Notes: generated by a model from the sequence alone, not told the origin. Shown: positions 24-43,746, counted from the first letter of the stretch. The stretch: DNA of 64,000 bases from Candidatus Doudnabacteria bacterium RIFCSPHIGHO2_12_FULL_48_16 (GCA_001780035.1 MFEY01000007.1:198343-262342), one strand, 5' to 3'. Numbers and translations: made by a program.

Positions 24-84
24 CGCAATCCTGACGAAAGTCAGGATCTCTCTATTGAGATCCCGAATCAAGTTCGGGATTGCC
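24..84 (-). repeat. Two-hairpin structured repeat element, copy C (inverted orientation)
   Basis: GCAAT-[hairpin 1]-ATCT..AGAT-[CCTGAC tttcg GTCAGG]-ATTGC architecture, shared with copies at 24504 and 43688. Confidence 0.6.
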
Positions 85-131
85 TCTCCTTTGCTTTTTT
101 GATTTAGTTTCTATTATCTATCACCTATCAG

Positions 132-872
132 CTACTGAATCAACCCCTGCTCCCTCGCGGATTTCTGGGCGGCTTCCAGTGACTTTTTGGCCGCCGCATT
201 ATCCGGCTCATACTGCAATATGGCGGTCCAGGCGTTGATCTCAATTAGCGGATCATTGATGGTATGACCATAGTAGGCATAAAAACGGACCAGATTTGCT
301 TCGTAATCAGTGGCTTTAAACGCTTCTTGAAACAACGGCTCCATTTCGTGCGGACGTTTTTTCAAATCATACCAAGACATCTCGATGAGTTTAGTATAAA
401 CAGAGGCGTTATTCGGAGCAATGGTTAGGGCTTTCCTAAATGACTCTTCAGCTTTCGCGTAATCCTTTAAGCGCCGGTAAATGCTCCCCAAATTGGAATA
501 CGGCACATACAAATTCGAGTCCGCTTTCGCGGCTTGCTCATAAGCGTAAATGGCCCGGCTCACCTGACCGAGTGATTCATGATTTAATCCCAGTTGAAGA
601 TAGAGGTCTGAGCACTTGTGGTCATCCTCCTTCGCTGAAGCTTCGGCGGACGGGTCGCTTGCTTGATCACAAGTTTTAATTTTGGTCTGCAGTTCCGCTA
701 TCACGGCTTCGACCCTCGCTCGCTGATCAGCCGTAATTTCCACTGGTTCGGTAATTTCTTCCGGCTGGCCAAAATATAAAATCATAGCCACCCCTGCAAT
801 GACGAGAACAACTAATCCTGCAATAATAGTTTTATTTTTTACGGTCCAAAATTTGATATCTGAGAGGTTCAT
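132..872 (-). CDS. TPR-repeat protein with N-terminal membrane anchor
   Basis: Single N-terminal hydrophobic helix (IIAGLVVLVIAGVAMILYF), then repeated A/Y/L-rich 34-aa TPR-like units (AIYAYEQAAK, YRRLKDYAKAEESFRKAL). Confidence 0.6.
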   Translation of the reverse strand: MNLSDIKFWTVKNKTIIAGLVVLVIAGVAMILYFGQPEEITEPVEITADQRARVEAVIAELQTKIKTCDQASDPSAEASAKEDDHKCSDLYLQLGLNHESLGQVSRAIYAYEQAAKADSNLYVPYSNLGSIYRRLKDYAKAEESFRKALTIAPNNASVYTKLIEMSWYDLKKRPHEMEPLFQEAFKATDYEANLVRFYAYYGHTINDPLIEINAWTAILQYEPDNAAAKKSLEAAQKSAREQGLIQ

Positions 873-946
873 AAATATAGGTTAATAGCCAAGATATAAT
901 AGTCCAATTATTAACCGATGGCAAGGGTGGGGTAGTTACCCAAACC

Positions 947-976
947 AAAAACCGCCTGCTTGCGCAAGGCGGTTTT
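947..976. terminator. Bidirectional rho-independent terminator (CCGCCTGC...GCAAGGCGG flanked by A-run and T-run)
   Basis: Hairpin with T-run on both strands; sits downstream of the surface-protein gene on the minus strand. Confidence 0.5.
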
Positions 977-1021
977 TGTGATGGTTTTAAGTTCCACCAA
1001 ACTTACACTAACTTACTAAAA

Positions 1022-4000
1022 TTAGTAAGAGAGAGTGCCACCATTGACAGGAATATTCTTGGTATCAGTGATGATACCGAAGGAAGTCTTGTCATCCCAG
1101 GTGAAGTCACCAACCGCTGCGAGAGCCGCAGTGATGGTTTCTGTCGCTGTGGAGGAGGCATTCGCGCCAGTGGTATCACCTTTGACCACGAAGGTCAAAG
1201 TGGTACCAGCAGCAACTGTCTGGCCGCTTGTGTTAATCAAGCCGGCCGTAACAGTAGCAGCGCTGTTGTGGTTCTTGGTCAACGCATTGGCTGTCGATCC
1301 ACTTGTGTAGTCGTAGTCAATGGTTGCGGCCAAGGTCACAGCAGTAACCGTAAGAGTGGTGGCATCCGGGATAGCCGTAATGACACCGCCTGCGGTTGAG
1401 GCCGTAGCAACACCAGTTCCACTGTAGCCAGTAACGGTCACTGTGTCACCGGTGGAAAATCCAGCGGTGGATGTGACGTTCAAGCTAGTGGAACCGTTCG
1501 CTTCGTCAGCAGTCAGAGTGGTCTGGGCTCCAAAGAAGAGCTTGCCAGTTCCTGGCTGCAACGGACGATAGTAAAGGATATCAGCATCGTCCAAGTCGAC
1601 TGTATAAGCAGCGCCGTTCTTGGTGAAGGTGATGGTGCAGTCGCCGCCGGTGACAGAGTCAACAACGGTAACCACCAAGTTACCCGTTACATAAGTTCCA
1701 CCGTCATCAACTCGGATAGTTGATCCGACTGGGATGCCATCGCAATCAGTCGGAACATCAATGACCTGGAAGGTGAGTTCAGCACCCCCGTCGCCACCGC
1801 TGTTGTCAGCGAAGGTAAGGGTTTGATACCCCTCAGTGGCCAAAGCCGTGTTGAGGTCAGTGCTCTTGTAGAGGTTGGCATTGCCAGAACTCGTCAAGAG
1901 AGCATTGCCGCTCAAAGTAACCGCAACCGCGTTCACGACTGCGTCGTAAGCGCTGTTAGCAGCAACATCAAAGCGGAACACTTCCTGAGTCGCGCTTTCA
2001 GATGTAGCACCTGAAGGTGACGCAGAGTTCAGAGCAACTGTGGCCTTGGTCCTGTAAATATCCTGGGCCGTACCGGCTGCAGATGAAACAGTTTCGGCAA
2101 TAGCCGCACCGGATGAAGCGCCGATTACGAGCACGTCATCAGTGGCGTGTACGATAGCCAAACTATGAGTTCCGCCGGAAACTGCGTTCGGGTAAGCGTT
2201 GACACTGCCCTTTAGAGTAAGGGTGGTGGTCGCGTTGCGAGGCAGAACCAAAGGAGTGGTCAAGTTAAAGGTCGCGGTGCCATCAACAGCAAGCGACAGT
2301 GAGGTTACGGTTGAACCAACCTGGGTGGAACCATTGAACAACTTGAGGTTGGACAAGGAACCGCCAAACTCATTCGGCGTGGTTGTGGAATCAGTCACAA
2401 TGATCTTGGTAATCTGTAGGTCTTCGGCTGAGCCGGCTTCAAAGTCGAACATAGCCAAAGTGACATCAGATTCACCCATGATCAATTGTCCAGCCACTGG
2501 TTGAGACGAGTTGGCCGAGACGGTGACAGAACCAGTCGAAGCGATCACTAAGCTCTGCAAATCAGCAGCGGTAGCATCCGAAGCGGACGAACCAGTAACT
2601 GCGCCAGTGGCGGATACGCTTACGTATTCCAAGCCGACTTCGGCAGTTGCATAATTTGCGGCGTTAGTGAGAATGTCAGCATACATATCGATGACAGCCT
2701 GTTGGCCGGCGGCGATAGTGAAAGCTGGGCTGGCGTTGAAGGTAAAGTCAACACCTTCAGTATCGGAGAGTTCGCCCTGAGTGACTCCGATTTGGGTGCT
2801 TCCATACATCATTCTCAGATTCTGGAAGTTGGCACCAAAGTCAGAAGTCGCATCTCCTGGGTCATCACCAACCACGATCTGGGTGACAGAGACGCCTTCG
2901 CCCGTACCGGCAGTTAAGACAAACGAACCAATTTTGACATTGGTCGCGCCCTTAACGCCAGTCGGGTTAGCCACAGTGGCGGAAGACATGGCGTTGTTAA
3001 TGGCTTCAGTCAAAGCGCCCGTCGCGGTGGTAACAGTGTTAGCATCGGATGAGGCGATAGTGATTGTAGCCAATGACACTTGACCGGTGGCAACCATGCC
3101 ACCGACAGAAACTTTGATTGTGGAAGCGGCAGTCAAAGCGCCACCTGTGGCGTCTTTGGTGTCAGCAACAACAGTCAATACTTTGGTCACGCCGGCTGGG
3201 ATGATGAAGGTATTACCTAAGCTAAAGGTCGTATCATCATCAGGAGAGGCGGTGGCCGTATCGACGAAGGTAGCTTCAGCAGTGTTGTCAGTGTCGAGAT
3301 CGGTGGTTGTCCCAACCTGTGAACCATCAACAAAGAGCTTGCCATTGTCGAGTCCAGCATCGTCGCCGGAAACAGTCAAGACAGTTCCAACGATAATCGT
3401 GGAAATCTTGACGGCTTCACCGGAGGCCTTGATGTTGAACTTAGCCAAGGTCACGCCAGTTGAAGCGGCGGTGACATTGCCAGTTGGGGAATCAGAAGCC
3501 TTGGTCACGGTCACGGTGCCGGAATTGATATCCGTCCCGTTGCCGGTTTCAGGCTCAATGATTGCCAAGGTGTCAGTCTGGTTCGGCTTGAGCGACACGC
3601 CGTAGTTCATGTCCTTAGCCGCGATGTCCGAAGACTTGCGGATAGTGAACTTGAACGAGCGGGAGGTGCCACCCACGATATCAGCGTGAACAGTGATCGT
3701 CTTGGTCTGGCCCGAAGTCAAAGAAATCGGGGAGGCCGAGAGATCAAATAAAACTGAATTGTCGGAAGCGACCTGCACGGTGGAACCGACTTGCACGCCA
3801 CTGTATTTCAGTTTGATGTTCTGAAGGTCAGTGGTGGCCACGGTGCCAACCAAAGTCAGGTTGAGCTTGGACACTTCAATAATCTGGTCAGCTGAGACCA
3901 AGTTGAAGCGCCAGACTTCCTGGTCATTCAATCCTGGGTCAATCGTCGCTGGGAACGAGGTGAAAGTGTTAATCGTCAATTTACCAAGGTCGGCCACGGT

Positions 4001-5140
4001 GGCAGTGGTCATCTTGTTGCCAACGAGTGGCAAACCGGAGACCGACGCGCCGCCGGAGAGAGCGACTGAGGTCAATGTGAGCGAGATGGTCTTACCAGAG
4101 GAAGTGCCGTTCGCCAAATCAGCCTTGACAGTGACGACACGGCTGGAGTTGGCAGGAACGGTGAACAAACCGGAAGAGTTGGTGAAGGTCGCAACTCCAT
4201 CAGAGTAGGAGTTGTATTCGGCCAATCGGGTGCTGCCATCATACAAGTAGATGTTGGACAAATCCGAGTTGGACGAAATACCGGTTCTCTTAACCGTGAC
4301 AGTCGTCACGACTGAAGCGGCAGAACCAGCGGTGAAGTTGACAGACAAGAACGGGATCAACGCTTGCGCGCCGTCGCCGGAAGTGGTGTCAGCAATGACT
4401 GAGGTAGCCACCGGGGTGGAAGCTGCGAGCGAAACGCTCAGAGCGCCGGAAACCGGAGGAGTGGTTGTGCCAGTGGTTGAGCAACCCGGGCGGGAGGCAA
4501 CCGCACCCTGGTCAGCCATAGCCAAGTCATAAGAGTTGGCTGCGACGACGTGGGCGAGATTGTAGCCAAATGAGCTAAAGTTGGCCATGGATGAAAAACC
4601 CATGCGGCCACTTGTACCCATCAGCCAGATTGCGCCATTGGAGATAACCTTGACACCAGCTGGGTGCGCAACTGCGCTGGAATCCAGGTTGGCGCCGGTG
4701 GAGAGATCGGCAAAGGTGTTGGCCGGAGCGGATTGGACGTTAGAGAAGCTAAATCCAAGACCGGTGAAGACCGAACCTGAGACGAATCCACGCTTTTGAC
4801 CGTTCGTCACTAAGTAAACGAGCGGGTCAGACGGACCTTTTACCAAGGTGCCGTCAGCGTAGGTCATAATAGGGCCGACTGGCAAAGCGACGTCTTCAGT
4901 GGTGGCAGTGACAACTTGCGAGAAGTTGTAACCCCAAGACTGGAAGACTTCAGCTGACGTGAAACCACGTCGGGTGCTGTTGGTGATCATCCAAACAACA
5001 CCGCCAGAGAGCACTAAACAACCTTCTGTGTGTACAGCAGCGGCAGCGAATGACGGGATAAGGCCGATTGACGCCCACAGGATTGTGGAAGCAGCCAAGC
5101 CGGCAGCCATTGCTTTCCGTGCTTTAGAAGATAATTGCAT
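1022..5140 (-). CDS. Giant cell-surface protein (1372 aa), S-layer/adhesin-like, Thr/Ser/Gly/Ala-rich with Ig-like repeat array
   Basis: Signal peptide (MQLSSKARKAMAAGLAASTILWASIGLIPSFAAAA). Three N-terminal ~60-aa repeats (G..R.GF.S..VF.S.GY.FS.V), then a long low-complexity beta-rich T/S/V/A region. AGGAGAA RBS, strong terminator downstream at about 947-976. Confidence 0.6.
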   Translation of the reverse strand: MQLSSKARKAMAAGLAASTILWASIGLIPSFAAAAVHTEGCLVLSGGVVWMITNSTRRGFTSAEVFQSWGYNFSQVVTATTEDVALPVGPIMTYADGTLVKGPSDPLVYLVTNGQKRGFVSGSVFTGLGFSFSNVQSAPANTFADLSTGANLDSSAVAHPAGVKVISNGAIWLMGTSGRMGFSSMANFSSFGYNLAHVVAANSYDLAMADQGAVASRPGCSTTGTTTPPVSGALSVSLAASTPVATSVIADTTSGDGAQALIPFLSVNFTAGSAASVVTTVTVKRTGISSNSDLSNIYLYDGSTRLAEYNSYSDGVATFTNSSGLFTVPANSSRVVTVKADLANGTSSGKTISLTLTSVALSGGASVSGLPLVGNKMTTATVADLGKLTINTFTSFPATIDPGLNDQEVWRFNLVSADQIIEVSKLNLTLVGTVATTDLQNIKLKYSGVQVGSTVQVASDNSVLFDLSASPISLTSGQTKTITVHADIVGGTSRSFKFTIRKSSDIAAKDMNYGVSLKPNQTDTLAIIEPETGNGTDINSGTVTVTKASDSPTGNVTAASTGVTLAKFNIKASGEAVKISTIIVGTVLTVSGDDAGLDNGKLFVDGSQVGTTTDLDTDNTAEATFVDTATASPDDDTTFSLGNTFIIPAGVTKVLTVVADTKDATGGALTAASTIKVSVGGMVATGQVSLATITIASSDANTVTTATGALTEAINNAMSSATVANPTGVKGATNVKIGSFVLTAGTGEGVSVTQIVVGDDPGDATSDFGANFQNLRMMYGSTQIGVTQGELSDTEGVDFTFNASPAFTIAAGQQAVIDMYADILTNAANYATAEVGLEYVSVSATGAVTGSSASDATAADLQSLVIASTGSVTVSANSSQPVAGQLIMGESDVTLAMFDFEAGSAEDLQITKIIVTDSTTTPNEFGGSLSNLKLFNGSTQVGSTVTSLSLAVDGTATFNLTTPLVLPRNATTTLTLKGSVNAYPNAVSGGTHSLAIVHATDDVLVIGASSGAAIAETVSSAAGTAQDIYRTKATVALNSASPSGATSESATQEVFRFDVAANSAYDAVVNAVAVTLSGNALLTSSGNANLYKSTDLNTALATEGYQTLTFADNSGGDGGAELTFQVIDVPTDCDGIPVGSTIRVDDGGTYVTGNLVVTVVDSVTGGDCTITFTKNGAAYTVDLDDADILYYRPLQPGTGKLFFGAQTTLTADEANGSTSLNVTSTAGFSTGDTVTVTGYSGTGVATASTAGGVITAIPDATTLTVTAVTLAATIDYDYTSGSTANALTKNHNSAATVTAGLINTSGQTVAAGTTLTFVVKGDTTGANASSTATETITAALAAVGDFTWDDKTSFGIITDTKNIPVNGGTLSY

Positions 5141-5624
5141 TGTATTCTCCTGTTTAACGGTTGCGCTTGCAGAATCAGGATTAATTATTCATATGAGACA
5201 ATCAATCCGTCATTCGAAACCAACCGATAAACATTTGTTTAATTTATTGCTCCGACGCTCTTGCGAGGTACGGAGTTCCGACTGTAACGTCGGAATAGAA
5301 TTAACTATTCGCCTTTTTACAGGCAAAAAAGCACAATGATCGACCCCGGGTTTTAAAGCCCCGATTGTGTTTCTATATAGTATTAATTCCACTTGTTAAG
5401 ACGAACGTCTGGAGAGGTTGGTTACAAAGAAATTATTCATAATTCCCCAGTATTCAGCCAGACGCAGACCCTCGATAAAATCCCCAAGGTTAGCCAATTT
5501 TCAGCAATAAAAAACCACCGCGGGTTAATTGCTCCCGGGCAGAGATATTGCTTAGTATTGAATTGATCCTGTGGGCATTTGCATCGAGTGTCAGTATTAT
5601 ATATAAAAGTGCCTTATTTGTCAA

Positions 5625-5687
5625 CCCTGTTAGAAGTCCACGCCAAAAAGCGTGGCATCCGCCTAAGGCGGATTACTTCTAACAGGG
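5625..5687. ncRNA. Y-shaped structured element: 13-bp closing stem CCCTGTTAGAAGT/ACTTCTAACAGGG enclosing two GC hairpins
   Basis: Inner hairpins CCACGCcaaaaaGCGTGG and TCCGCCtaaGGCGGA. Lies between two terminator-like hairpins downstream of tRNA-Gly. Confidence 0.35.
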
Positions 5688-5734
5688 TCAAGCTATAAGA
5701 AACAAAATTTAAATCCCCTTTCGGGGAGGTTTTT

Positions 5735-5808
5735 TGGAGCGGGATGCGGGAATCGAACCCGCGCCACCAGCTTGGAAGGCTAGCGTACTACCATTATACG
5801 AATCCCGC
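5735..5808 (-). tRNA. tRNA-Gly (anticodon TCC)
   Basis: Reverse complement GCGGGATTCGTATAATGGTAGTACGCTAGCCTTCCAAGCTGGTGGCGCGGGTTCGATTCCCGCATCCCGCTCCA. Cloverleaf with GTTCGATTC T-loop, anticodon loop CTTCCAA, encoded CCA. Confidence 0.85.
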
Positions 5809-5951
5809 TGAATCAATTCATAAGAAATTTTATCAAAATTTCCAGGTATTATCAATGGTCTATCGTTATCCACAAATTACTTGATAGGTATTGATAGGAT
5901 ATCTATTTTGTCCACAAAAGGAAGGCTGGCCTGTGAAGACCAGCCTTTTGC

Positions 5952-6767
5952 TTAACCATCGAGTTCTTCAGTACGCGTGATTGCGGCCGCAATCCCTGCC
6001 TCGATCACCTCGGACAGTTTCAGTTGCGCAAACACGTCGAGCCCGGCTTGTGTGATCCCGCCCTTGGTCGCCACGGATCGGACGATGTCAGCGAGATCCA
6101 ATTTTTGATCAAACGCCCTATGACAAAGGCCAAGCGTGGAAAGCAGGACTTCGCGCAGCGCCTCTTCTCGGCTCCAGCCTTGAGCCTCAATCGCGGCCAC
6201 GAAAGCTCCAAGTCCATACGCTACTAGTCCGGGCAGAGCGCCGATCGCAACAATCGCGGTTTTGACATCGTTCTCCACCACGGTTTCAAGCGCCTCACCC
6301 CAGCTGCGGATGATCTGAATCGCCATGCCACTCACTTCTGTGGCCATTGAAGGTTCGATCATATAGACGCTTCTCGCCTGGCCAGTCGCGGCCAAGATAC
6401 TTGTGCTCGCACGAACGAGACGACGTGTTCCGAGAACCCGAGTCAACGTGACAAAGGTCTTCCCTGTCACTACAGACAAGACGGTCTGTGTCGGGTTCAA
6501 AACCGGCGCCAAGTCACGCCCGACTTGCGCCAAATCCCCTGGCCTCACCGCCACGATCACGACCTCGGCGTCAGTAACTGCCTCAACCAAACACGCGCGG
6601 GCCTGGCATCTGGGAATCTGAGCTTCAATTTCCTTCAGGCGGCGTGAATCCTGACGACAAACCCACAACTCGCGAGGGTGGCAGACTTGCGTCTCGACCA
6701 ACCGCCTAGCAATGATTGAACCCAATTTCCCAAACCCGATTAACGCGACTTTCGAGCTGTTACTCAT
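5952..6767 (-). CDS. proC: Pyrroline-5-carboxylate reductase
   Basis: N-terminal Rossmann VALIGFGKLG. C-terminal P5CR signature ATKGGITQAGLDVF. AAGGAGGAGAG RBS. GC-richer than surroundings. Confidence 0.8.
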   Translation of the reverse strand: MSNSSKVALIGFGKLGSIIARRLVETQVCHPRELWVCRQDSRRLKEIEAQIPRCQARACLVEAVTDAEVVIVAVRPGDLAQVGRDLAPVLNPTQTVLSVVTGKTFVTLTRVLGTRRLVRASTSILAATGQARSVYMIEPSMATEVSGMAIQIIRSWGEALETVVENDVKTAIVAIGALPGLVAYGLGAFVAAIEAQGWSREEALREVLLSTLGLCHRAFDQKLDLADIVRSVATKGGITQAGLDVFAQLKLSEVIEAGIAAAITRTEELDG

Positions 6768-6968
6768 CGCTCTCCTCCTTTATTGTAAGCAAACAAAAAC
6801 TGACCCGAAGGGTCAGAGAATTGAGTTTGAAAAAATCCAACGCAAATCACTTATCCTTCGGATAAGTGGGTCGGCGGAACTTGATTGATAATTAAATAAT
6901 GCATGACTTTGACAGTATAGATCGGGTGTAAATCTGAGTCAAATTTTTCCAGAAACATCAGACGTTTC

Positions 6969-7042
6969 TGGTCGGGGTGCTGGGAATTGAACCCAGTCTA
7001 CCTGCTCCCAAAGCAGGCGTACTACCGGTATACGACACCCCG
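6969..7042 (-). tRNA. tRNA-Pro (anticodon TGG)
   Basis: Reverse complement CGGGGTGTCGTATACCGGTAGTACGCCTGCTTTGGGAGCAGGTAGACTGGGTTCAATTCCCAGCACCCCGACCA. Acceptor CGGGGTG/CACCCCG, anticodon loop TTTGGGA. Confidence 0.85.
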
Positions 7043-18588: not shown

Positions 18589-18780
18589 TCAATTCTTCTT
18601 CTCCCCTTGCGGGAGAAGATGTCCCGCCTTTGGCGGGACAGATGAGGGGTTATTGAGAATATCTTTAAGTTTATTCAGTAAACTTTTTTCGTGGTCCAAT
18701 TCGCTATTCCAGAATCTAATTACTTTAAAACCTTGAGCTTCTAAATACTTGGTTCGTTCAATATCATAGAATTTGCCCAA
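18589..18780 (-). pseudogene. DUF559 (Vsr-like endonuclease domain) C-terminal fragment
   Basis: DIERTKYLEAQGFKVIRFWNSEL matches the DUF559 C-terminal motif. No N-terminal half upstream. The tail is encoded by a two-hairpin repeat element. Confidence 0.45.
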
Positions 18781-24503: not shown

Positions 24504-24564
24504 GCAATGCTGAACTTGGTTCAGCATCTATTTTTAGAGATCCTGAAATAAATTCAGGATTGCG
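24504..24564 (+). repeat. Two-hairpin structured repeat element, copy A
   Basis: gcaatGCTGAACttggtTCAGCatct...agatCCTGAaataaatTCAGGattgcg, between hisS and comEC. Confidence 0.6.
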
Positions 24565-32088: not shown

Positions 32089-32259
32089 CTGTCAAAAGCC
32101 AATTTCGGGCTATTTTCTACGGGCGGAACTACCGGTAGAGAAACTTATCAACAAAAGAGTGCCATGAGGGTTTCCCTGTGTCAATTTCAAATTTTCCCTC
32201 TCCCTTTGCGGGAGAGGGTGGCGCGAAGCGCCGGGTGAGGGGTATAATTAATTATATTT

Positions 32260-33447
32260 ATGACCTCTAATCTGGAAAAATCCAAATCAAGCTGTCTTTA
32301 CTGCGGCAACAACCCTATCCCACACACGGTTCATAAGTTTTATGAATCCCTCGACATCGCATTTGGGCCGATTCGGCGCGGCTTGTCTCAAAGTCCCCTC
32401 GGCGCCGCCGGGGACAAGCTTGGTAACTTGGTCGGCATCGGGCTTTATCGAATCCTCAAGGCTATGGGCCTGATCACCATCAATACCAGCATCGACGAAA
32501 TCAAATATGACCGGGCGCGGGTGATTTGGGCGGAAGCCATGCGGCGGCAAATCCCGATCGAGGAGATCAAACCATTTAACCGCTCGATTGATTTATACAA
32601 AAGCCGGATCAATAACCGGGATTTTTGGTTTATGAACCTGCCGCGGCGCGAACACGTCGCCACTAGCAACTTAACCTGGGTCGATGATAAATGGCTGCTC
32701 AAGAAAAAACTGCGCGAACATAGCCTGCCCACGGCCAAGGGCGGGGCGTTTTTCAGGTATGCGGCGGCCAAGCAAATGTTCCATCAACTGAATAAGCCGG
32801 TCATCGTCAAGCCGCGCGCCGGATCGCGTGGCCGGCACACCACGACCTTTATTTACACCGAAGATGATTTTTGGCAGGCGTTTAAAATCGCCAAACAACT
32901 CTGCCACTGGGTAATTGTCGAAGAACACCTCTTCGGCGATGTCCAGCGCGGCACCATCATCGGCGGCAAGCTGATTGGGGTCTTAGGCGGCAGCTCGCCC
33001 AAGGTCACCGGGGATGACCAAAACTCAATTTTAGAACTGATCCGACAAACCGACGCCGGCCGGCCGATGGGCGTAAAAGAAATCCAAGTCAATCCGTATT
33101 TCATGCAGCGGCAAGGGCTAACCATGGAAACCGTGTTGCCGGCCGGAAAAACCGTTTATCTGTCAGAAAAAATTGGAGTCAACTACGGTGGCACGAGTTT
33201 TGACGCTACCCCCTACACTCATCCAGAAACCAAAGCTATGCTGGAAAAAGCCGGCCAGGTGCTCAACGTTTCGATCTTGGGGTTTGATTTCATCGTGCCG
33301 GATATTAGAAAATCCTACAAAGAACAAAAAGCCGGCATTATCGAATGCAACGGCGCGCCGTTTATCAATTTACATCACGATCCCCTGATCGGAGAATCCA
33401 TCAACGCCGCCAAAGCCGTGTGGGATTTAGTTTTAGAAAATAAATAG
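32260..33447 (+). CDS. ATP-grasp protein resembling the N-terminal + ATP-grasp domains of cyanophycin synthetase (no Mur-ligase domain)
   Basis: KPVIVKPRAGSRGRHTTTF (compare CphA PVVVKPLDGNHGRGV). IIECNGAPFINLHHDPLIG (compare CphA IEVNAAPGFRMH). -10 TATAAT 16 nt upstream of the ATG. Confidence 0.5.
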   Translation: MTSNLEKSKSSCLYCGNNPIPHTVHKFYESLDIAFGPIRRGLSQSPLGAAGDKLGNLVGIGLYRILKAMGLITINTSIDEIKYDRARVIWAEAMRRQIPIEEIKPFNRSIDLYKSRINNRDFWFMNLPRREHVATSNLTWVDDKWLLKKKLREHSLPTAKGGAFFRYAAAKQMFHQLNKPVIVKPRAGSRGRHTTTFIYTEDDFWQAFKIAKQLCHWVIVEEHLFGDVQRGTIIGGKLIGVLGGSSPKVTGDDQNSILELIRQTDAGRPMGVKEIQVNPYFMQRQGLTMETVLPAGKTVYLSEKIGVNYGGTSFDATPYTHPETKAMLEKAGQVLNVSILGFDFIVPDIRKSYKEQKAGIIECNGAPFINLHHDPLIGESINAAKAVWDLVLENK

Positions 33448-36385: not shown

Positions 36386-36386
36386 A

Positions 36387-37634: not shown

Positions 37635-37693
37635 TTGATTTTTTCTTTTTAGATTTCCCCTCCCCTGACGAGGGGAGGGAACAAACAGTTAAA

Positions 37694-38173
37694 TTATTTT
37701 AAACGTTCTTTGACCAGTTTGGAAATTACCGAACCGTCGGCTCTTGCGCCCACTTTCGCCACCACTTCTTTCATGACTCTGCCAAAGTCGGCCTTAGTGG
37801 CATTGCCAGTCGCAATCGTCTCATCCACGATTTTCGCGACTTCTGATTCCGGCAGGGCTTGCGGTAAATATTTTTCTAAGGTCTTCATCTGAGCCTGCTC
37901 GTTGGCAACCAGATCGGCGCGGCCACCGGCGGCAAAACTTTCGATCGAATCTTTATGCTGCTTAACTTTTTTTGCAACCACTTTGAGCGCTTCGCCGTCA
38001 CTTAGCAGTTCCCGCCCACCTTCGGTGGGCGAGGCTCGCCCAGACTGCGTCTGGGCGGCAATTTCCGCATTTTTGAATGCGGCCTTCAAATTACGCAGCG
38101 CTGAAACCGCAATTTCATCTTTGGCTTTCAGCGCCGTGGTTAAATCCTGATCAATAGTTTGAATTAAGCTCAT
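37694..38173 (-). CDS. GatB/YqeY domain protein
   Basis: 159 aa helical: DLTTALKAKDEIAVSALRNLKAAFKN. Confidence 0.7.
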   Translation of the reverse strand: MSLIQTIDQDLTTALKAKDEIAVSALRNLKAAFKNAEIAAQTQSGRASPTEGGRELLSDGEALKVVAKKVKQHKDSIESFAAGGRADLVANEQAQMKTLEKYLPQALPESEVAKIVDETIATGNATKADFGRVMKEVVAKVGARADGSVISKLVKERLK

Positions 38174-38204
38174 CAGTAATCAATCTTTACGGACAGTTAA
38201 ATTT

Positions 38205-38450
38205 TTAGCGTCTCTTAAAACTTCGGGTTGGCACAAACTTGCCTTGTTTCTTCAGTTCTTCGCGCTTTTCGCGATTTTCGCTGCGGCGCTGGGCCGCTTC
38301 ACGCAATAAGTTGCGGGATTTGGCCGGCTCGAAAAAGCGGATTCGGCGGGCGCGAATCAAAACTCCGCTTTGTTGAATCTTGCGGTTAAACCGCCTCAGC
38401 AATCCTTCGAAGGATTCGCCGTCTTTTTTCTTTACTACTACCAAAATCAA
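38205..38450 (-). CDS. rpsU: 30S ribosomal protein S21
   Basis: VVKKKDGESFEGLLRRFNRKIQQSGVLIRARRIRFFEPAKSRN. Confidence 0.8.
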   Translation of the reverse strand: MILVVVKKKDGESFEGLLRRFNRKIQQSGVLIRARRIRFFEPAKSRNLLREAAQRRSENREKREELKKQGKFVPTRSFKRR

Positions 38451-38568
38451 TCACCCCTTTCTTTCCCGACGCTTCGGTCGGGACTCCGACCTCCGATATT
38501 TCGGAGCGTCGGAGAAAATTCTACGTGGAATATACCACAAAACCGCTGAATGGTCAAATATCCACAGG

Positions 38569-39849
38569 TTACCGGCCTAATCTTTTTTTGACTTCATCGA
38601 TGATCCGGTCGATCACAAACAGCTCCTGCATACCTGACCGCACGTCGCGCAAAATCACGGTGCCTTCCCGGGCTTCCTTGTGGCCGATAATCAGAGCGAT
38701 ACTGGCTTTGCTCGATTCCGCCAGCTTAAGCTGCATTTTGATCGAACTGGGACCGGAAAATTCGGAAGCGATGATATCATGATTCCACAGTTCGGTAAAA
38801 AGTTTCAACGATTTTTTCGCAGCCAGCTCCCCCAACGGCACCAGAAACACTTCGGCCCGATGTTTGGCGGCAAATTTAATCTGGGCCAATTCCAAGGCTT
38901 TAAGGATGACTTCCTGAGTGGAATCAAATCCCAAGGCCGGACAGGCCGCTCCGCCCAACGATTGGATCAGCTCGTCGGAATGACCCCCGGTCCCGAGCAC
39001 GAAATCCTGATCGGCGATCCGGCAACGCAGTTCAAACACGGTCCGACGATTCCAAGGCCGGCCGATGACATGCGGATTGAGGTTATAGCTGATAGCCAGC
39101 TCATCCAGACCTTCCAGCACCGAAATCAGCTGGGCTCGGCAAGTCTCGCATAAATAGTCGACGATCACGGGCGCGTCGGTTGTTGTTGTGGAGCAGGCTA
39201 AATTTTTGCAGGCAAAAATCTGCAGCGGGTTGCCGGCCTCGAGGTAGATCAAACAATTTTCACATAAATCGTATTTCTTGTCTTTAAAATAAATTTTGAG
39301 CTGGTCCTGATAATTGGGCTGGCATTCCACGCAGCCGACATTGTTGACTTCCAGAGAAAAATTGCTTAAACCGACTTCGGTAAACAACCGCAGTAGTAAA
39401 TTGAGGAGTTGGGCATCGCTGACCGGCGCCACGGGTCCGAAAATCTGAAAGCCAAATTCCCGATTTTGCTTTAACTCATTTTTTTCATCCCAGCAGGCGA
39501 CCAGCATATCATAATACCATTTCACCACCTTTATCGGTTCCTGTTCCTGCAGGGGCAGATATAGCCGGGCAAGGCCAAAAATGCCGGCCGGAGCGGCAGC
39601 AATGCTGGGGCCTTTGGTTTGCAGAAAATTCAGCAACTGGCAGCCGACTTTGGACCAAAAGCCGAACAGCCGCGAGTCCTCGAACATCGGCGTCTGCACC
39701 TGACTAAAACCAAAAGTGCGCGAAAGCGCCACCACTTTCTCCCAAAATCCTTCCCAAGACATAAACTGGTCCTGACCCAGGTCAAAACTGCCGGGCAATC
39801 GATGAGGGGCTTTTTCAACATTTGGAGTTGGTTTTTTGGGGCGGCCCAT
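38569..39849 (-). CDS. Divergent histidyl-tRNA synthetase paralog with zinc-ribbon insertion
   Basis: HisRS-like N-terminus (ALSRTFGFSQVQTPMFEDSRLF), relic motif 2 (NREFGFQIFG), Cys cluster CVEC..C..C...C..C, and HisRS-type anticodon-binding domain (ALIIGHKEAREGTVILRDVRSG). Confidence 0.55.
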   Translation of the reverse strand: MGRPKKPTPNVEKAPHRLPGSFDLGQDQFMSWEGFWEKVVALSRTFGFSQVQTPMFEDSRLFGFWSKVGCQLLNFLQTKGPSIAAAPAGIFGLARLYLPLQEQEPIKVVKWYYDMLVACWDEKNELKQNREFGFQIFGPVAPVSDAQLLNLLLRLFTEVGLSNFSLEVNNVGCVECQPNYQDQLKIYFKDKKYDLCENCLIYLEAGNPLQIFACKNLACSTTTTDAPVIVDYLCETCRAQLISVLEGLDELAISYNLNPHVIGRPWNRRTVFELRCRIADQDFVLGTGGHSDELIQSLGGAACPALGFDSTQEVILKALELAQIKFAAKHRAEVFLVPLGELAAKKSLKLFTELWNHDIIASEFSGPSSIKMQLKLAESSKASIALIIGHKEAREGTVILRDVRSGMQELFVIDRIIDEVKKRLGR

Positions 39850-39938
39850 AATAAAAAGTAAAAAGTTAGAAATAAAAAGTCAAAACTTCCAGTTTATTTT
39901 ACTTTTGTTTTACTTTTTACTTTTTCCCTTTTACTTTG

Positions 39939-40571
39939 CTAAAAGCTATACGCTGGAGTTTTAGTGTATACCTCAAACTCGTTTAATGGCAAGGCCCGCA
40001 AAAACACCTTTCCGATGATATTGGACCGCTTGAGCACGCCCCAATCACGCGAATCCGATGACGCCAGGCGGTTATCGCCCATGACGAAATATTCGTCATC
40101 GCCAATGGTCAAGACATTCTTGCCACCGACCACGGCCGCGTCATGCGGAAAGGTCAATCCTTGATTGGACAAATAAGACTCATCCAGCGGCGCTCCTTCC
40201 GGGTTGCCCGGCGAAAAAATTATTACCTTACCGTTGTCAATTTCCACCCGTTCATGCGGCAGGCCGATCACCCGCTTGATAAAAAATTGTTTGGGATCTT
40301 TCGGATAGCGCAGGACGACCACTTGGCCACGGCTTGGATTGCCGAAATGATAAGTCAGTTCGTCAATGACCAAATATTGGCCGTTTTGGAAATTGGGTTC
40401 CATACTAGAACCGGAAACAATAAACGGCTGAAAAATAAAATAGCGAATCGGGACGATAATTGCCAGGGCAATGATCACTATTTTCAAAAAATCCCAGATG
40501 AACAGAAGGCCCGAAACAAATGTGCCGGAGGAGGGGTTTTGATTTTCTGGATTGGACTCGTTTGGAGACAT
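39939..40571 (-). CDS. lepB: Signal peptidase I
   Basis: GSSMEPNFQNGQYLV (Ser box), GDNRLASSDSRDWG. Confidence 0.9.
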   Translation of the reverse strand: MSPNESNPENQNPSSGTFVSGLLFIWDFLKIVIIALAIIVPIRYFIFQPFIVSGSSMEPNFQNGQYLVIDELTYHFGNPSRGQVVVLRYPKDPKQFFIKRVIGLPHERVEIDNGKVIIFSPGNPEGAPLDESYLSNQGLTFPHDAAVVGGKNVLTIGDDEYFVMGDNRLASSDSRDWGVLKRSNIIGKVFLRALPLNEFEVYTKTPAYSF

Positions 40572-40583
40572 AAAATTATTTTA

Positions 40584-40660
40584 TGGTGGATGATAGTGGA
40601 CTCGAACCACTGACCTCGTCGATGTGAACGACGCGCTCTAACCAGCTGAGCTAATCATCC
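40584..40660 (-). tRNA. tRNA-Val (anticodon CAC)
   Basis: Reverse complement GGATGATTAGCTCAGCTGGTTAGAGCGCGTCGTTCACATCGACGAGGTCAGTGGTTCGAGTCCACTATCATCCACCA. Anticodon loop TTCACAT. Confidence 0.85.
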
Positions 40661-40864
40661 AAATGTAAGATAAGGCTGCCGCCTCACTTTGTGAGGCGAG
40701 CCTCGCCCAACTGAAGTTGGGCGGAAGCTAACCGCCCGCATAACAAAGGACTTCATAAGCTTAACAAAGAAGGGGCGTGCCCGCAACGCCTGAGTCCCGC
40801 CGCGGCGGGACAATGGCGGGCGGGTGGAAAATCAATACTCTTTCCGGTATAATAACTTGGCATT

Positions 40865-42367
40865 ATGCCAAACTTTGATGTCATCAAACCCAATGGGATC
40901 AGACCGCCGGCTGGTTCCAATTTTACGCCGCCCCGCAAGAGGCGGTTTCGCAAATTGAAGTGGCTTTTGGTCGTGGTGATTTTATTGACTCTTGGCCTCT
41001 GGGGTGTAACCCGGGTTTTTTCCCGAACCAATCAAATCTTTACCAGTAAACAAAATATCTTTACCCGGATCGGGAATCTGATCATCAGCCCGGATCGGCC
41101 TTTAATCGGAGAAGAAGACGGCGCGGTTAACATTCTGCTTATGGGCATCGGCGGCGAGGGCCACGATGGCGCGCATCTGGCCGACACGATGATCGTCGCC
41201 AGCATTGATCTCAAGAGCCACGAGGTCGTGCTGACTTCGATCCCGCGTGATTTTGCCTTAGTTCTGCCCAAAGTCGGCTACAATAAAATCAACGCCGCTT
41301 ATGCTTACGGTTACCGCGATGATCCGAATACAGCCGGCGATGCCGCGATTTGGGCGGCGCAGGAAGTCACCGGCCTGACCATCCCTTACTACGCTGTGAT
41401 TGATTTCCAAGGATTTGTCAAAGCGGTTAACGATGTCGGCGGAGTTGACGTCGTGATCGATAATACATTTACCGATACAACATTCCCCAATGATTACCCC
41501 AACGATACCAAAGGCTATCTCTCTCCCGTGACTTTTGCCAAAGGCCCGGCCCATATGGACGGCCGCACGGCGCTGATTTTTGCTCGCTCCCGCCACAGCG
41601 AAAACAACAACGAAGGATCGGATTTTGCCCGGTCGGAACGCCAGAAAAAAATCATCACCGCGCTCAAGGAGCGGGTTTTGTCCCTTAATTTGACTGATCT
41701 GGCCACCATTAACAATTTACTGGCCGATTTTTCCGACAATTTCCGCACCAATCTCGAACCTTACGAAATGAAACGCCTGGCCGATCTGGCCAAAGAGACC
41801 GCCAGTGACGCTATCTACTCGTTCTCCCTGGAACCGCAGACCAATCTGATTTGTTCCGAGCTCGTCGACGCCAACACGGGCAAACACATTGTGGTGCCGG
41901 CCAAACCGGCGCCAGAAACCCCAACCGCAACTGAGACACTCGCAACAAAGCCCACGGCCCCTGCTCCGGATTCGGCCCCGGCAGAGCCGCAGGTCGTGCC
42001 AATGTATGTTATTCATCCCTGCGTCGGCAAAACGCTCGGGGACATCCACGAATTCGTGCGCCTGGCTCCGATTTTGGCCAAGCTTAGAAAAGAAGCGGCC
42101 AGCCTTGAACTCCAAAACTCCGTCGGCAAAACCGGTTTGGCCAACAAGCTCTTCGGCCCGCTGGCCGACTTTGGGGTAGTCATTAAATACACGACCTTCC
42201 AGGGCAAGGTTCCCTACGAACAAACTCTGCTTTACGATAATTCCCATAACGGCAAACCGCAGACCCTGGAATATTTAAAATCAAATTTCCGGTTGAATTT
42301 GTCAGACGTCAACTACCCGGCCAGTCCGGCCGACTTTGTCATTATTATCGGAAAGGATAATTTGTGA
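40865..42367 (+). CDS. LCP (LytR-CpsA-Psr) family cell-envelope protein with Pro/Thr-rich linker
   Basis: N-terminal TM. ILLMGIGGEGHDGAHLADTMIVASID...TSIPRD LCP core. PAKPAPETPTATE linker. Confidence 0.8.
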   Translation: MPNFDVIKPNGIRPPAGSNFTPPRKRRFRKLKWLLVVVILLTLGLWGVTRVFSRTNQIFTSKQNIFTRIGNLIISPDRPLIGEEDGAVNILLMGIGGEGHDGAHLADTMIVASIDLKSHEVVLTSIPRDFALVLPKVGYNKINAAYAYGYRDDPNTAGDAAIWAAQEVTGLTIPYYAVIDFQGFVKAVNDVGGVDVVIDNTFTDTTFPNDYPNDTKGYLSPVTFAKGPAHMDGRTALIFARSRHSENNNEGSDFARSERQKKIITALKERVLSLNLTDLATINNLLADFSDNFRTNLEPYEMKRLADLAKETASDAIYSFSLEPQTNLICSELVDANTGKHIVVPAKPAPETPTATETLATKPTAPAPDSAPAEPQVVPMYVIHPCVGKTLGDIHEFVRLAPILAKLRKEAASLELQNSVGKTGLANKLFGPLADFGVVIKYTTFQGKVPYEQTLLYDNSHNGKPQTLEYLKSNFRLNLSDVNYPASPADFVIIIGKDNL

Positions 42368-43686
42368 GAATTCCCCTGGTTGCCATCATTGGATCGCCCA
42401 ATTCCGGCAAATCGACTTTCTTCAACAAAGTTCTGGAAGAACGCAAGGCTCTGACCTACCCGGAAGCCGGCACCACCCGCGACCGGGCCTATGGTCTGGC
42501 CGCCTGGAACGGCCTGTCGTTTTATCTGATCGACACCGCCGGAATTATCGGCAATCCGGATTCTGATCTGGAAAAAAACGTGCAGAAACAAACCCAAATC
42601 GCGCGCGACGAAGCGGATTTGATCTTATACATCGTCGACGGGCAAACTCCGGTGGGCTCGGAAGACCTACGGGTTGCAGCGCAGCTGAAGCAAACCAAAA
42701 AGCCGATTGTCTTGGCCGTCAACAAGATTGATACCCGCAACGCCAAAACCGAAACCGCGGCCAGCGGCTATTTAAAACTCGGCCTGGGGGAAACCTATGC
42801 CATGTCCTCGATCAACGGCGCTGGCATCGGCGACCTGCTGGATGCCGTGGTGGCTGAACTTAAAAAACAATTTGACGCCGCCGATAAAAATCAAGAAGAG
42901 GGTTTGCGCATTGCCTTTGTCGGCAAGCCCAATGTCGGCAAATCATCTTTGATTAACGCCCTCTTAAAGCAAGAGCGGCTGATCACCTCGCCGATTGCGG
43001 GCACCACCCGCTCCACCGTAGAAGTGCCGTTCGAGCATGGCGGACAAAAATTCATTTTGCTCGATACCGCCGGGATTAAAAAGAAATGGAACCAGGATTC
43101 GGACGTGGCGGCAGCCGCGGCCATGCAGTCGATCCGCACCATCAGCCAGGCTGATGTGATCTTCTTTACGGTCGATGCCAGCCAAGAACTCTCGGTCCAG
43201 GACCAGATTATCGCGGAGCAAATTCTGGATGCCCAAAAAAGCTGCGTCGTGGCGCTCAATAAAATTGATTTGCTCGCCCCCAATGACCAGCAAAGGCTAC
43301 TCGATACCTTGCCGGACTATCTGCCTCAAATGTGGTATTTGCCGGTCCTGTTTATTTCCGCCAAAACTTCCCAGGGCCTCGACCTTCTGTTAAAATTCGC
43401 CATAGAGGCGCACCGGGCGGCTAGGCGCGAAATCGACCCGGACGAACTCGACGCTTTTCTCGAAAAAATCACCAAAGAGAGTATGCCGGGCAAGATGGAA
43501 GATCAGCGCGCGCCGAAAATCTATAACCTTAAGCAAATCGGCACTGCGCCGCCGACCTTCAAAATGACCGTCAATTTTCCGGCGGCCATCGCCACCGCCT
43601 GGAAAAGATGGTTCGAAAAACAATTCCGCCTGAAATTCGGCCTGGAGGGCACGCCGATTGAAATTAGATATACTAAGAAAAATTAA
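42364..43686 (+). CDS. der: Ribosome-associated GTPase Der (EngA)
   Basis: Two G domains (GSPNSGKST; GKPNVGKSS) plus KH-like C-terminus. GTG start overlapping the LCP stop. Confidence 0.9.
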   Translation: MRIPLVAIIGSPNSGKSTFFNKVLEERKALTYPEAGTTRDRAYGLAAWNGLSFYLIDTAGIIGNPDSDLEKNVQKQTQIARDEADLILYIVDGQTPVGSEDLRVAAQLKQTKKPIVLAVNKIDTRNAKTETAASGYLKLGLGETYAMSSINGAGIGDLLDAVVAELKKQFDAADKNQEEGLRIAFVGKPNVGKSSLINALLKQERLITSPIAGTTRSTVEVPFEHGGQKFILLDTAGIKKKWNQDSDVAAAAAMQSIRTISQADVIFFTVDASQELSVQDQIIAEQILDAQKSCVVALNKIDLLAPNDQQRLLDTLPDYLPQMWYLPVLFISAKTSQGLDLLLKFAIEAHRAARREIDPDELDAFLEKITKESMPGKMEDQRAPKIYNLKQIGTAPPTFKMTVNFPAAIATAWKRWFEKQFRLKFGLEGTPIEIRYTKKN

Positions 43687-43687
43687 C

Positions 43688-43746
43688 GCAATGCTGAACT
43701 TGTTTCAGCATCTCGGAAATAGATCCTGACTTTCGTCAGGATTGCG
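43688..43746 (+). repeat. Two-hairpin structured repeat element, copy B
   Basis: gcaatGCTGAACttgttTCAGCatctcggaaatagatCCTGACtttcgTCAGGattgcg, between der and pth. Confidence 0.6.

What the first reader, a model, noticed from the sequence alone, without database searches (positions are those of the whole stretch)
24..43746. Three copies of a 60-nt two-hairpin element with compensatory base changes (24-84, 24504-24564, 43688-43746)
All copies share GCAAT...ATCT-N-AGAT...ATTGCG framing and hairpin 2 stem CCTGA(C)/(G)TCAGG.

Hairpin 1 differs between copies (GCTGAAC/GTTCAGC versus CCCGAAC/GTTCGGG), and hairpin 2 loops differ (ctttcg versus aataaat), while pairing is preserved. That is compensatory evolution, indicating selection on RNA or ssDNA structure.

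The copies are intergenic and occur in both orientations relative to the neighbouring genes, so they are not simply terminators. They are candidates for a REP/BOX/Correia-like mobile structured element or an sRNA family.
Basis: seen in the sequence. Interest (0 to 1): 0.7.

Follow-up and report, generated by a model that had tools for sequence, protein, structure and literature searches.

The report
Empty ends of an Ssn nuclease cassette
The three 60-base repeats are the two hairpin ends of a small mobile cassette that, in related bacteria, carries a gene for a single-strand-DNA-cutting GIY-YIG nuclease (the Ssn family, described in 2025), so they are DNA hairpin sites rather than small RNAs.

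Summary
Three 58-60 nt copies lie at 25-83 (-), 24504-24563 (+) and 43688-43745 (+), far more than chance gives. Across 27 copies from related genomes the hairpin stems keep pairing through compensatory changes.

The window comes from a Candidatus Doudnabacteria (CPR) genome from the Rifle aquifer. Each copy is a pair of oppositely oriented half-sites, c-GCA-[AT S C Y GA..TC R G S AT]-CT.

In five related genomes the same two half-sites bracket a 100-aa single-domain GIY-YIG ORF. The left end lies 6-9 nt before the ATG, and the last codons and the stop lie inside the right hairpin. The 60-nt repeats are therefore ORF-less, MITE-like versions of that cassette.

The protein is 58% identical to a homologue flanked by the exact Neisseria NTS consensus. 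That places the system in the published Ssn/SRM family, in which ssDNA-specific nucleases bind a hairpin repeat (Chenal et al. 2025).

The half-site layout matches NTS, but the published SRM search pattern misses these CPR elements.

One copy sits in frame inside dus in a relative and is absent from the window's dus, which indicates gain or loss of copies.

No support was found for an sRNA, a terminator or a REP/RAYT origin. This is a new member of a known kind. No ssn gene lies in the window.

The parts
25..83 (-). Copy 1: complete ORF-less cassette (59 nt). It lies 48 nt downstream of the stop of the TPR gene (132-872, -). The next gene on that strand starts about 240-280 nt further on, beyond the window edge.
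   Evidence: (85.7 bits)
58..83 (-). Copy 1, left-end half-site: GCA-ATCCCGAA-CTTGA-TTCGGGAT-CT. This half carries the compensated C-G/C-G stem variant.
25..49 (+). Copy 1, right-end half-site read on its own strand: GCA-ATCCTGAC-GAAA-GTCAGGAT-CT.
24504..24563 (+). Copy 2: complete ORF-less cassette (60 nt). It fills the spacer between the hisS stop (24572, - strand) and the comEC-like start (24490, - strand), and is oriented opposite to both genes.
   Evidence: (80.8 bits)
24504..24529 (+). Copy 2, left-end half-site: GCA-ATGCTGAA-CTTGG-TTCAGCAT-CT.
24538..24563 (-). Copy 2, right-end half-site read on its own strand: GCA-ATCCTGAA-TTTAT-TTCAGGAT-CT.
43688..43745 (+). Copy 3: complete ORF-less cassette (58 nt). 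It starts 1 nt after the der stop (43686) and ends 9 nt before the pth ATG (43755), in the same orientation as both genes.
   Evidence: (81.5 bits)
43688..43713 (+). Copy 3, left-end half-site: GCA-ATGCTGAA-CTTGT-TTCAGCAT-CT. It is 25/26 identical to the left end of the ORF-bearing cassette in L081.
43721..43745 (-). Copy 3, right-end half-site read on its own strand: GCA-ATCCTGAC-GAAA-GTCAGGAT-CT. It is 25/25 identical to the right end of the L081 cassette.

Best explanation
Each 60-nt element is an 'empty' Ssn cassette. It consists of two inverted copies of an Ssn-related hairpin motif (SRM) joined by a few leftover bases.

In related Doudnabacteria the same two ends bracket a 100-aa single-domain GIY-YIG nuclease gene of the Ssn family. 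The window's copies are therefore non-autonomous, MITE-like derivatives of that cassette.

When the DNA is single-stranded (during uptake in natural transformation, replication or repair), each half folds into an 8-9 bp hairpin flanked by GCA on the 5' side and C on the 3' side. By analogy with Neisseria SsnA/NTS, an Ssn nuclease would bind that hairpin strand-specifically and cut a few nucleotides upstream, just outside the element. Because the two half-sites lie on opposite strands, either strand carries one cuttable site.

The compensatory stem changes reflect selection, or propagation bias, for ssDNA hairpin formation needed for recognition.

What is shown here: the repeat family, the hairpin covariation, the physical ORF-in-the-middle relationship, co-residence of empty and full cassettes in the same MAGs, and presence/absence differences at orthologous sites.

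What is taken from the literature: the ssDNA-only, hairpin-directed cleavage and the effect on transformation.

What is inferred: that the CPR enzyme does the same on these sites, and that the cassette spreads by a nuclease-dependent route.
For: (1) ORF-bearing versions exist.
- L081 3969-4319 reads GCAAT-GCTGAACTTGATTCAGC-ATCT-gtaatt-ATG...ATT CAG AGA TCC TGA-CTTTCGTCAGG-ATTGC.
- L088, L085 and L090 have the same layout.
- L066 has the same right end and a complete empty element 21 nt upstream.
- The middle 5-10 nt of the empty copies begin like the ORF's leader (CAAAA..) and end like its last codon (..AG).

(2) Empty and full cassettes occur in the same MAGs. CAYOPE01 has L090 plus L043/48/51/52/63. 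JACPKU01 has L085 plus L016.

(3) The protein is GIY-YIG only (PF01541), 100 aa.
- Tyr9, Tyr20 and Glu67 are invariant.
- They have the same spacing as the Y6/Y17/E64 residues mutated in N. meningitidis SsnA (PMC11893778).

(4) The protein is 58% identical to P0051. The P0051 gene in L096 is flanked by CGTCATTCCCGCGAAGGCGGGAATCCAG, an exact match to the published NTS consensus.

(5) The half-site layout matches the functional anatomy of NTS. NTS reads C-GTC-[AT......AT]-C and the element reads c-GCA-[AT......AT]-C. The 3' C and the 5' trinucleotide are the determinants of binding and cutting in the paper.

(6) More distant homologues keep the architecture with different sequence: L093 has TGTCAT-hairpin-ATCC // GGAT-hairpin-ATGACA, and L092 has 10-bp and 12-bp arms.

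(7) Folding with DNA parameters gives two 8-9 bp hairpins, z = -4.4 to -5.5. Covariation supports the local hairpins and rejects the long-hairpin alternative.

(8) Sites are gained or lost.
- In L062 the element sits in frame inside dus, adding about 21 aa absent from the window's Dus.
- L051 and L060 carry a copy at a site that is absent from the window.
- The window's hisS-comEC copy is absent from the L051 hisS 3' spacer.
Against: - No ssn gene lies in the window or in 10 kb beyond its left edge. Whether this genome encodes the enzyme is unknown, so the three copies may be orphans.
- The published degenerate SRM search sequence does not match these elements (0 hits).
- Direct comparison with N. 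meningitidis SsnA was not possible, because its sequence is not held. Family membership rests on an intermediate homologue.
- No target-site duplication or clean empty site was found at nucleotide resolution. All Rifle strain variants carry all three copies, so recent mobility is not shown.
- The strong sense-orientation bias of the commonest subtype is not predicted by a purely DNA-level role. About 12 of about 13 copies with assignable context (12 of 17 if copies without assignable context are counted) are co-oriented with their flanking genes, and many lie 7-13 nt upstream of an ATG.
- Nuclease activity of any CPR homologue is untested.
Confidence: 0.8

Rival explanations
1. A structured RNA element. 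This could be an intercistronic processing or stability signal, a translation-related 5' structure or an sRNA, acting in the polycistronic transcripts in which the copies are embedded.
For: - The copies lie between co-directional genes and are surely transcribed.
- In about 12 of about 13 copies of the commonest subtype with assignable context, the element is in the sense orientation. It sits 1-13 nt after a stop and 7-13 nt before an ATG.
- RNA folds are stable, z = -3.8 to -6.0.
- Most genes in this genome lack a Shine-Dalgarno sequence and have very short leaders, so a processing site that creates a short leader is conceivable.
Against: - There is no Rfam match, and no loop or junction nucleotides are conserved.
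- Copy 2 and several other copies are antisense to their genes. One copy lies antisense and in frame inside dus.
- The halves are the ends of a nuclease-gene cassette.
- The characterised enzyme of that family does not bind RNA (PMC11893778).
- The sense bias can be inherited from ORF-bearing cassettes that need read-through transcription.
Confidence: 0.08
2. A REP/BIME-type or IS200/IS605-derived palindromic element, mobilised by an HUH (Y1) transposase such as a RAYT.
For: The element is a short extragenic palindromic repeat with no target-site duplication and a hairpin-based design. In these respects it resembles REP.
Against: - The gene found between the two ends in five related loci is GIY-YIG, not a Y1 transposase.
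- No Y1/RAYT gene is listed among the Pfam-annotated neighbours of the loci fetched with gene calls. Coverage is limited: the pattern-scan loci (L011-L072) carry no gene calls.
- The element has no GTAG-type REP head.
Confidence: 0.03
3. Double-stranded operator sites for a dimeric DNA-binding regulator, or intrinsic terminators or attenuators.
For: Each half is a palindrome of the 6-5-6 type, and the copies lie in intergenic spacers.
Against: - G-C and C-G stem variants coexist within one genome. They preserve pairing but change base identity, which does not fit a single regulator.
- The downstream genes are unrelated housekeeping genes: pth, atpA, murG, secA, comF and others.
- No U tract follows either hairpin, whereas genuine terminators in the window have one.
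Confidence: 0.03

Closest known systems
Ssn nucleases and their Ssn-related motifs (SRM), e.g. NTS/dRS3 of Neisseria (Chenal et al., Nat Commun 2025, PMC11893778)
   Same: - The nuclease is a single-domain GIY-YIG protein of about 94-100 aa.
- The gene is bracketed by hairpin repeats (an 'NTS-ssnA-NTS' arrangement like an IS), and many extra copies of the repeat occur in intergenic DNA.
- The half-site anatomy matches: a 5' trinucleotide, an 8-bp stem that begins and ends with AT, then a 3' C.
- The catalytic Tyr/Tyr/Glu residues have the same spacing.
- An intermediate homologue (P0051/L096) is flanked by the exact NTS consensus.
   Different: - The palindrome core differs (S-C-Y-G-A-A/C instead of TCCCGCG), and the 5' trinucleotide is GCA instead of GTC.
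- The published degenerate SRM pattern does not match.
- The repeated unit here is a fixed inverted pair of half-sites, i.e. the cassette minus its ORF, rather than single NTS units.
- Copy number is low: 3 per 64 kb, and 5-6 detected per MAG.
- The host is a CPR/Patescibacteria lineage, which the paper does not mention.
- Activity is untested.
REP/BIME elements and RAYT (IS200/IS605-like Y1 transposases)
   Same: Both are short extragenic palindromes recognised as ssDNA hairpins. In both, the cognate enzyme gene is itself flanked by the repeats, there is no target-site duplication, and domestication is possible.
   Different: The enzyme class differs: a hydrolytic GIY-YIG nuclease versus an HUH/Y1 enzyme with a covalent intermediate. 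The sequence is unrelated. Here the two ends are on opposite strands.
Rickettsia palindromic elements (RPE)
   Same: Both are palindromic repeats that can sit in frame inside protein-coding genes without destroying them. This is seen here in L062 dus. The Ssn paper lists Rickettsia among SRM-rich genera.
   Different: RPEs are longer, about 100-150 bp. The comparison rests on my knowledge of Ogata et al. 2000 and was not tested with the tools. The three window copies are all intergenic.
MITEs such as Correia elements of Neisseria
   Same: Both have terminal inverted repeats and are non-autonomous internal-deletion derivatives of a longer element. Both are inserted close to genes and are co-transcribed.
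   Different: No TA or other target-site duplication is present. The parent element encodes a nuclease rather than a DDE transposase. Each terminal repeat is itself a hairpin.
Free-standing GIY-YIG homing endonuclease genes (e.g. T4 Seg proteins, I-TevI relatives)
   Same: Both are small selfish GIY-YIG genes inserted between host genes and dependent on read-through transcription.
   Different: Homing endonucleases have a separate DNA-binding domain, cut duplex DNA at an empty allele, and are not bounded by hairpin inverted repeats or accompanied by ORF-less copies at unrelated loci.

Membership tests
Ssn / SRM system | The repeat is a hairpin-forming imperfect palindrome with conserved, oriented flanks. 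| tested here: met
   All six half-sites in the window fit GCAAT-S-C-Y-GA..TC-R-G-S-ATCT. ssDNA folds give two 8-9 bp hairpins. Stems covary at four positions.
Ssn / SRM system | The repeats flank, on both sides, a gene for a single-domain GIY-YIG protein of about 94-100 aa. | tested here: met
   Met in related genomes: L081, L085, L088 and L090 have both ends, and L066 has the right end plus an adjacent full element. The protein is 100 aa and matches PF01541 only. It is not met inside the window itself, which has no ssn homologue (tblastn).
Ssn / SRM system | The protein is homologous to N. meningitidis SsnA (the paper's criterion is E < 1e-10; CDD cd10448). | tested here: inconclusive
   The SsnA sequence and CDD are not available in the tools. 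Indirect evidence: 58% identity (E about 1e-31) to P0051, whose gene is flanked by the exact NTS consensus. Tyr9, Tyr20 and Glu67 are invariant with the same spacing as SsnA Y6/Y17/E64.
Ssn / SRM system | Match to the published degenerate SRM search sequence HGTCWYN(0-2)YYVSBRHN(0-5)WNVSBRGN(0-2)RNCYNB. | tested here: not met
   There are 0 matches in the window and in all Doudnabacteria and Moranbacteria-type loci, and 2 matches in the Rhodocyclaceae control L096. The pattern is a search aid derived from 29 genomes, not a definition, but these elements fall outside it.
Ssn / SRM system | A cytosine immediately 3' of the palindrome (crucial for binding) and a conserved trinucleotide 5' of it (crucial for cutting). 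| tested here: met
   The 3' C is invariant in all 27 copies, as the C of ATCT. The 5' trinucleotide is invariant but is GCA rather than GTC. The Moranbacteria-type relative L093 has GTC.
Ssn / SRM system | Strand-specific cleavage of ssDNA only, a few nucleotides upstream of the hairpin, with no activity on dsDNA or RNA. | not testable with these tools
   This needs purified protein and oligonucleotide assays.
MITE (non-autonomous derivative of a TIR-bounded element) | Terminal inverted repeats shared with a longer ORF-bearing element, with the internal part deleted. | tested here: met
   Window copy 3 is 25/26 and 25/25 identical to the two ends of the L081 cassette. The middle bases correspond to the ORF leader and the last codon.
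MITE (non-autonomous derivative of a TIR-bounded element) | Target-site duplication. | tested here: not met
   The flanks of 25 copies show no direct repeat. They show only the complementary c...g that extends the inverted repeat.
REP / RAYT | Association with a Y1 (HUH) REP-associated transposase gene flanked by the repeats. | tested here: not met
   The flanked gene is GIY-YIG. No Y1 transposase is listed among the annotated neighbours. Whole genomes were not scanned.
Known RNA families (Rfam 15) / tRNA-like | A significant covariance-model match or a tRNA call. | tested here: not met
   The only gathering-threshold hits in the window are four tRNAs elsewhere. The best hit on copy 3 has E = 1.3 and is irrelevant.
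Intrinsic terminator | A G+C-rich hairpin followed by a U tract. | tested here: not met
   A-rich or mixed sequence follows both hairpins. Real terminators in the window, such as 50120-50200 on the - strand, have T7 tracts.

The most novel reading that the evidence does not exclude
The CPR cassette is a working transposable unit of a so far unestablished class. In this reading, a 100-aa GIY-YIG ssDNA nuclease cuts just outside two oppositely oriented terminal hairpins. The cassette gives rise to MITE-like empty copies that spread to new intergenic sites and can also land in frame inside genes.

The very clean architecture in Doudnabacteria would make the mechanism directly testable. The ORF start lies 6-9 nt from the left end, the stop codon lies inside the right hairpin, and the ends total 51 nt.

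A related possibility is that these sites govern the fate of ssDNA taken up by the ComEC/DprA machinery, on which CPR bacteria are thought to depend.
Probability: 0.3. Interest if true: 0.75.

Novelty: new member of a known kind. Interest (0 to 1): 0.42.

Why it matters
- It explains a puzzling structured repeat without invoking a new RNA.
- It extends the Ssn/SRM system, described in 2025, to the Candidate Phyla Radiation, with a motif that the published search pattern does not detect. SRM surveys are therefore likely to undercount divergent lineages.
- The Doudnabacteria cassette is unusually compact and shows a clear full-versus-empty relationship. One copy is also inserted in frame in a conserved gene. 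This is the kind of evidence needed to decide whether Ssn cassettes are true mobile elements, a question the original paper left open.
- For annotation, the copies should be labelled as SRM-like DNA repeats, not as ncRNA genes.

Tried and rejected
- Rfam at gathering and E-value thresholds, and ARAGORN, gave nothing at the copies.
- I first read the element as a perfect four-way junction (cloverleaf) and considered tRNA-like or RNase P processing and junction-specific cleavage. I dropped this because the 'outer' and 'middle' stems never vary within the family. Their complementarity is fully explained by the two half-sites being inverted copies of one motif, and ssDNA folding prefers two extended hairpins.
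- The long single hairpin (RNase III-like) alternative is rejected by covariation: pair 6-56 is unpaired in 22 of 27 copies.
- A promoter inside the element is rejected because it contains no -10-like hexamer, whereas normal genes here have TATAAT 7-13 nt before the ATG.
- A search for SD-like content in the middle loop was unconvincing.
- A viral-contig scan gave only a chance hit.
- The weak covariance-model hit at 50166-50192 is a terminator.
- Population polymorphism was checked for all three copies. Every Rifle strain variant carries them, so no empty allele was found.
- Literature searches for Doudnabacteria repeats, GIY-YIG with MITE, COG2827 and YhbQ found nothing. The dRS3 + GIY-YIG search found the Ssn paper.
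- An attempt to reach a named Neisseria SsnA through a second homology search failed, because the top 120 hits were all closer relatives of the query.
- It could not be determined whether the window's own genome has an ssn gene. The closest ssn gene from the same site belongs to another species' assembly, MFFE01.

Full report
**Observation.** The three copies are real. They lie at 25-83 (element sense on the minus strand), 24504-24563 (+) and 43688-43745 (+).

- The framing pattern is expected 0.14 times by chance, and a full-length pattern 0.00 times, against three elements found.
- A covariance model built from the three copies and run over the whole window with filters off finds only these three, at E about 1e-22 to 1e-24.
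- The next hit, 50166-50192, is an ordinary intrinsic terminator with a T7 tract.
- A fuzzy search for single half-sites finds exactly six, two per element and none solitary.

**Source and context.** Exact-protein look-ups place the window in Rifle-aquifer metagenome assemblies and MAGs (GCA_001777855.1, GCA_001777785.1 and others). The element's relatives are in Candidatus Doudnabacteria MAGs.

- Copy 3 fills the spacer between der and pth. It starts 1 nt after the der stop and ends 9 nt before the pth ATG, in sense orientation.
- Copy 2 fills the spacer between hisS and a comEC-like gene, antisense to both.
- Copy 1 lies 48 nt after the stop of a TPR gene, in sense orientation.
- All strain variants recovered from the site carry all three copies unchanged.

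**Family.** A loose pattern was scanned over one genome per species (596 Gb). About 33 chance hits were expected, and the scan returned 53 loci.

- Only 18 of the 53 loci showed hairpin pairing. All 18 are in Doudnabacteria MAGs, or in MAGs labelled 'uncultured Saccharibacteria'. Three of the loci from the latter MAGs are syntenic with the window at 65-77% nucleotide identity.
- A metagenome scan added seven loci carrying the element, five of them new copies. A viral scan added none.
- Twenty-seven distinct copies were aligned. The stem sequences are nearly invariant and the middle 5-10 nt are free.
- Four stem positions covary with essentially complete pairing: GC/CG, TA/CG, CG/GC and CG/AT/TA.
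- The alternative single long hairpin is contradicted, with pair 6-56 unpaired in 22 of 27 copies.
- Rfam and ARAGORN find nothing.

**The key result.** In locus L066 a complete element is followed 21 nt later by a 100-aa GIY-YIG ORF. Its last codons and stop codon lie inside a second, partial element.

Close homologues of that protein (72-84% identity, all 100 aa) were then looked up in their contigs. In L081, L088, L085 and L090 the ORF sits exactly between the two halves of the element:

GCAAT-hairpin-ATCT, 6-9 nt, ATG ... AAG/CAG AGA TCC TGA-(rest of hairpin)-ATTGC.

- The two halves of window copy 3 are 25/26 and 25/25 identical to the ends of the L081 cassette.
- The variable middle of the short copies starts like the ORF's leader (CAAAA) and ends like its last codon (AG).
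- The 60-nt elements are therefore ORF-less derivatives of a cassette of about 350 bp.
- Empty and full cassettes occur in the same MAGs (CAYOPE01, JACPKU01).
- More distant homologues keep the architecture with other sequences. L093 has TGTCAT-CCTGAACTTGATTCAGG-ATCC on the left and its exact reverse complement on the right. L092 has 10-bp and 12-bp arms around unrelated hairpins.

**Identification.** A proteobacterial homologue (P0051, 58% identical) is flanked in L096 by CGTCATTCCCGCGAAGGCGGGAATCCAG. That sequence led to Chenal et al. 2025 (PMC11893778). According to that paper:

- SsnA of N. meningitidis is a 94-aa single-domain GIY-YIG protein.
- It binds the hairpin repeat NTS (CGTCATTCCCGCGMAVGCGGGAATCYRG) only as ssDNA and strand-specifically, and cuts a few nucleotides upstream. 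It is inactive on dsDNA and RNA.
- The C just after the palindrome is crucial for binding, and the three nucleotides before the palindrome are crucial for cutting.
- The system lowers transformation by NTS-bearing DNA.
- ssn genes in many phyla are flanked by Ssn-related motifs, an IS-like arrangement.

The L096 flanks match the NTS consensus and the paper's degenerate SRM pattern. The CPR elements do not match that pattern. Their half-site layout is nevertheless the same: c-GCA-[AT S C Y G A..T C R G S AT]-C against C-GTC-[ATTCCCGC..GCGGGAAT]-C, and the Moranbacteria-type relative even has GTC.

- The right end read on its own strand has a GAAA/GGAA/GCAA loop. This explains the TTNC loops seen on the top strand.
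- The protein matches only PF01541.
- Tyr9, Tyr20 and Glu67 are invariant and spaced as SsnA Y6, Y17 and E64.
- With DNA parameters each copy folds as two 8-9 bp hairpins.
- The apparent outer and middle stems are simply the inverted flanks of the two half-sites.

**Gain and loss.**

- L051 and L060 are two different relatives. They share a copy at one orthologous site, with identical stems but diverged loops and flanks. The window lacks that site's genes.
- The window's hisS-comEC copy has no counterpart downstream of hisS in L051. L051 instead has a decayed half-element directly before hisS.
- In L062 a copy lies antisense and in frame inside dus, adding about 21 residues that the window's 62%-identical Dus lacks. 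This recalls Rickettsia palindromic elements.
- No target-site duplication is seen.

**Mechanism proposed.** The copies are ssDNA hairpin sites for an Ssn-type nuclease, one site on each strand, left by or spread from the ssn cassette.

- Shown here: the repeat, its covariation, the cassette relationship and site turnover.
- Taken from the literature: hairpin-directed ssDNA cleavage and its effect on transformation.
- Inferred: that the CPR enzyme acts in the same way, and that cleavage just outside both ends underlies spread.

**Unexplained.**

- The commonest subtype is almost always in sense orientation and close to a start codon. This may be inherited from ORF-bearing cassettes that need read-through transcription, but an RNA-level effect is not excluded.
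- It is not known whether the window's genome encodes Ssn.

**Verdict.** It is a new, divergent member of the Ssn/SRM kind, and of moderate interest.

Noticed in passing
window 18596-18652: A second, different two-hairpin repeat: TTCTTCTCCCCTTGCGGGAGAAGATGTCCCGCCTTTGGCGGGACAGATGAGGGGTTA. It is 82% identical to L028 6201-6255 in another Doudnabacteria MAG. It lies about 17 nt upstream of a likely ATG on the minus strand. Rfam gives no match.
   Followed up: partly
window, gene starts throughout (e.g. 32260, 40865, 50070, 55298, 11024): Most genes lack a Shine-Dalgarno sequence and have a TATAAT-like box ending 7-13 nt before the ATG. This suggests very short leaders or leaderless mRNAs in this CPR organism.
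   Followed up: partly
window 50120-50200 (minus strand): Two tandem intrinsic terminators (hairpin plus T7) lie downstream of the 125-aa gene at 50233-50607. One of them was the only weak non-family hit of the covariance model.
   Followed up: yes
L088 5944-6033: A copy of the element with a 31-nt insertion in the first hairpin loop lies inside a 545-aa DinB-like (IMS) ORF. This appears to be another intragenic copy.
   Followed up: partly
L051 5218-5255: A decayed half-element (..AGAGAT-CCTAAAACAAGTTCAGG-ATTAC) lies 4 nt before the hisS ATG in a relative, preceded by a terminator-like hairpin.
   Followed up: yes
L069 1707-1808: A perfect inverted repeat of about 100 nt in a metagenome contig matched the search pattern by chance. 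Its arms are not self-complementary hairpins, and it is not a family member.
   Followed up: partly
window 46568-48820 versus L001 12814-15161: topA is one 750-aa ORF in the window and in most strain assemblies. In one assembly (L001) it is split into 308-aa and 474-aa ORFs, with about 95 extra bases.
   Followed up: no
window 32196-32255: A 60-nt stretch is 84% identical to L030 32-91 from another Doudnabacteria MAG, just upstream of the gene starting at 32260. Rfam gives no match and its nature is unknown.
   Followed up: partly
L096 1797-1880: In the Rhodocyclaceae control locus, the ssn gene is followed by a complete ORF-less unit (forward NTS, short spacer, inverted NTS-like hairpin). This is the same full-plus-empty adjacency seen in the Doudnabacteria loci L085 and L066.
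   Followed up: partly
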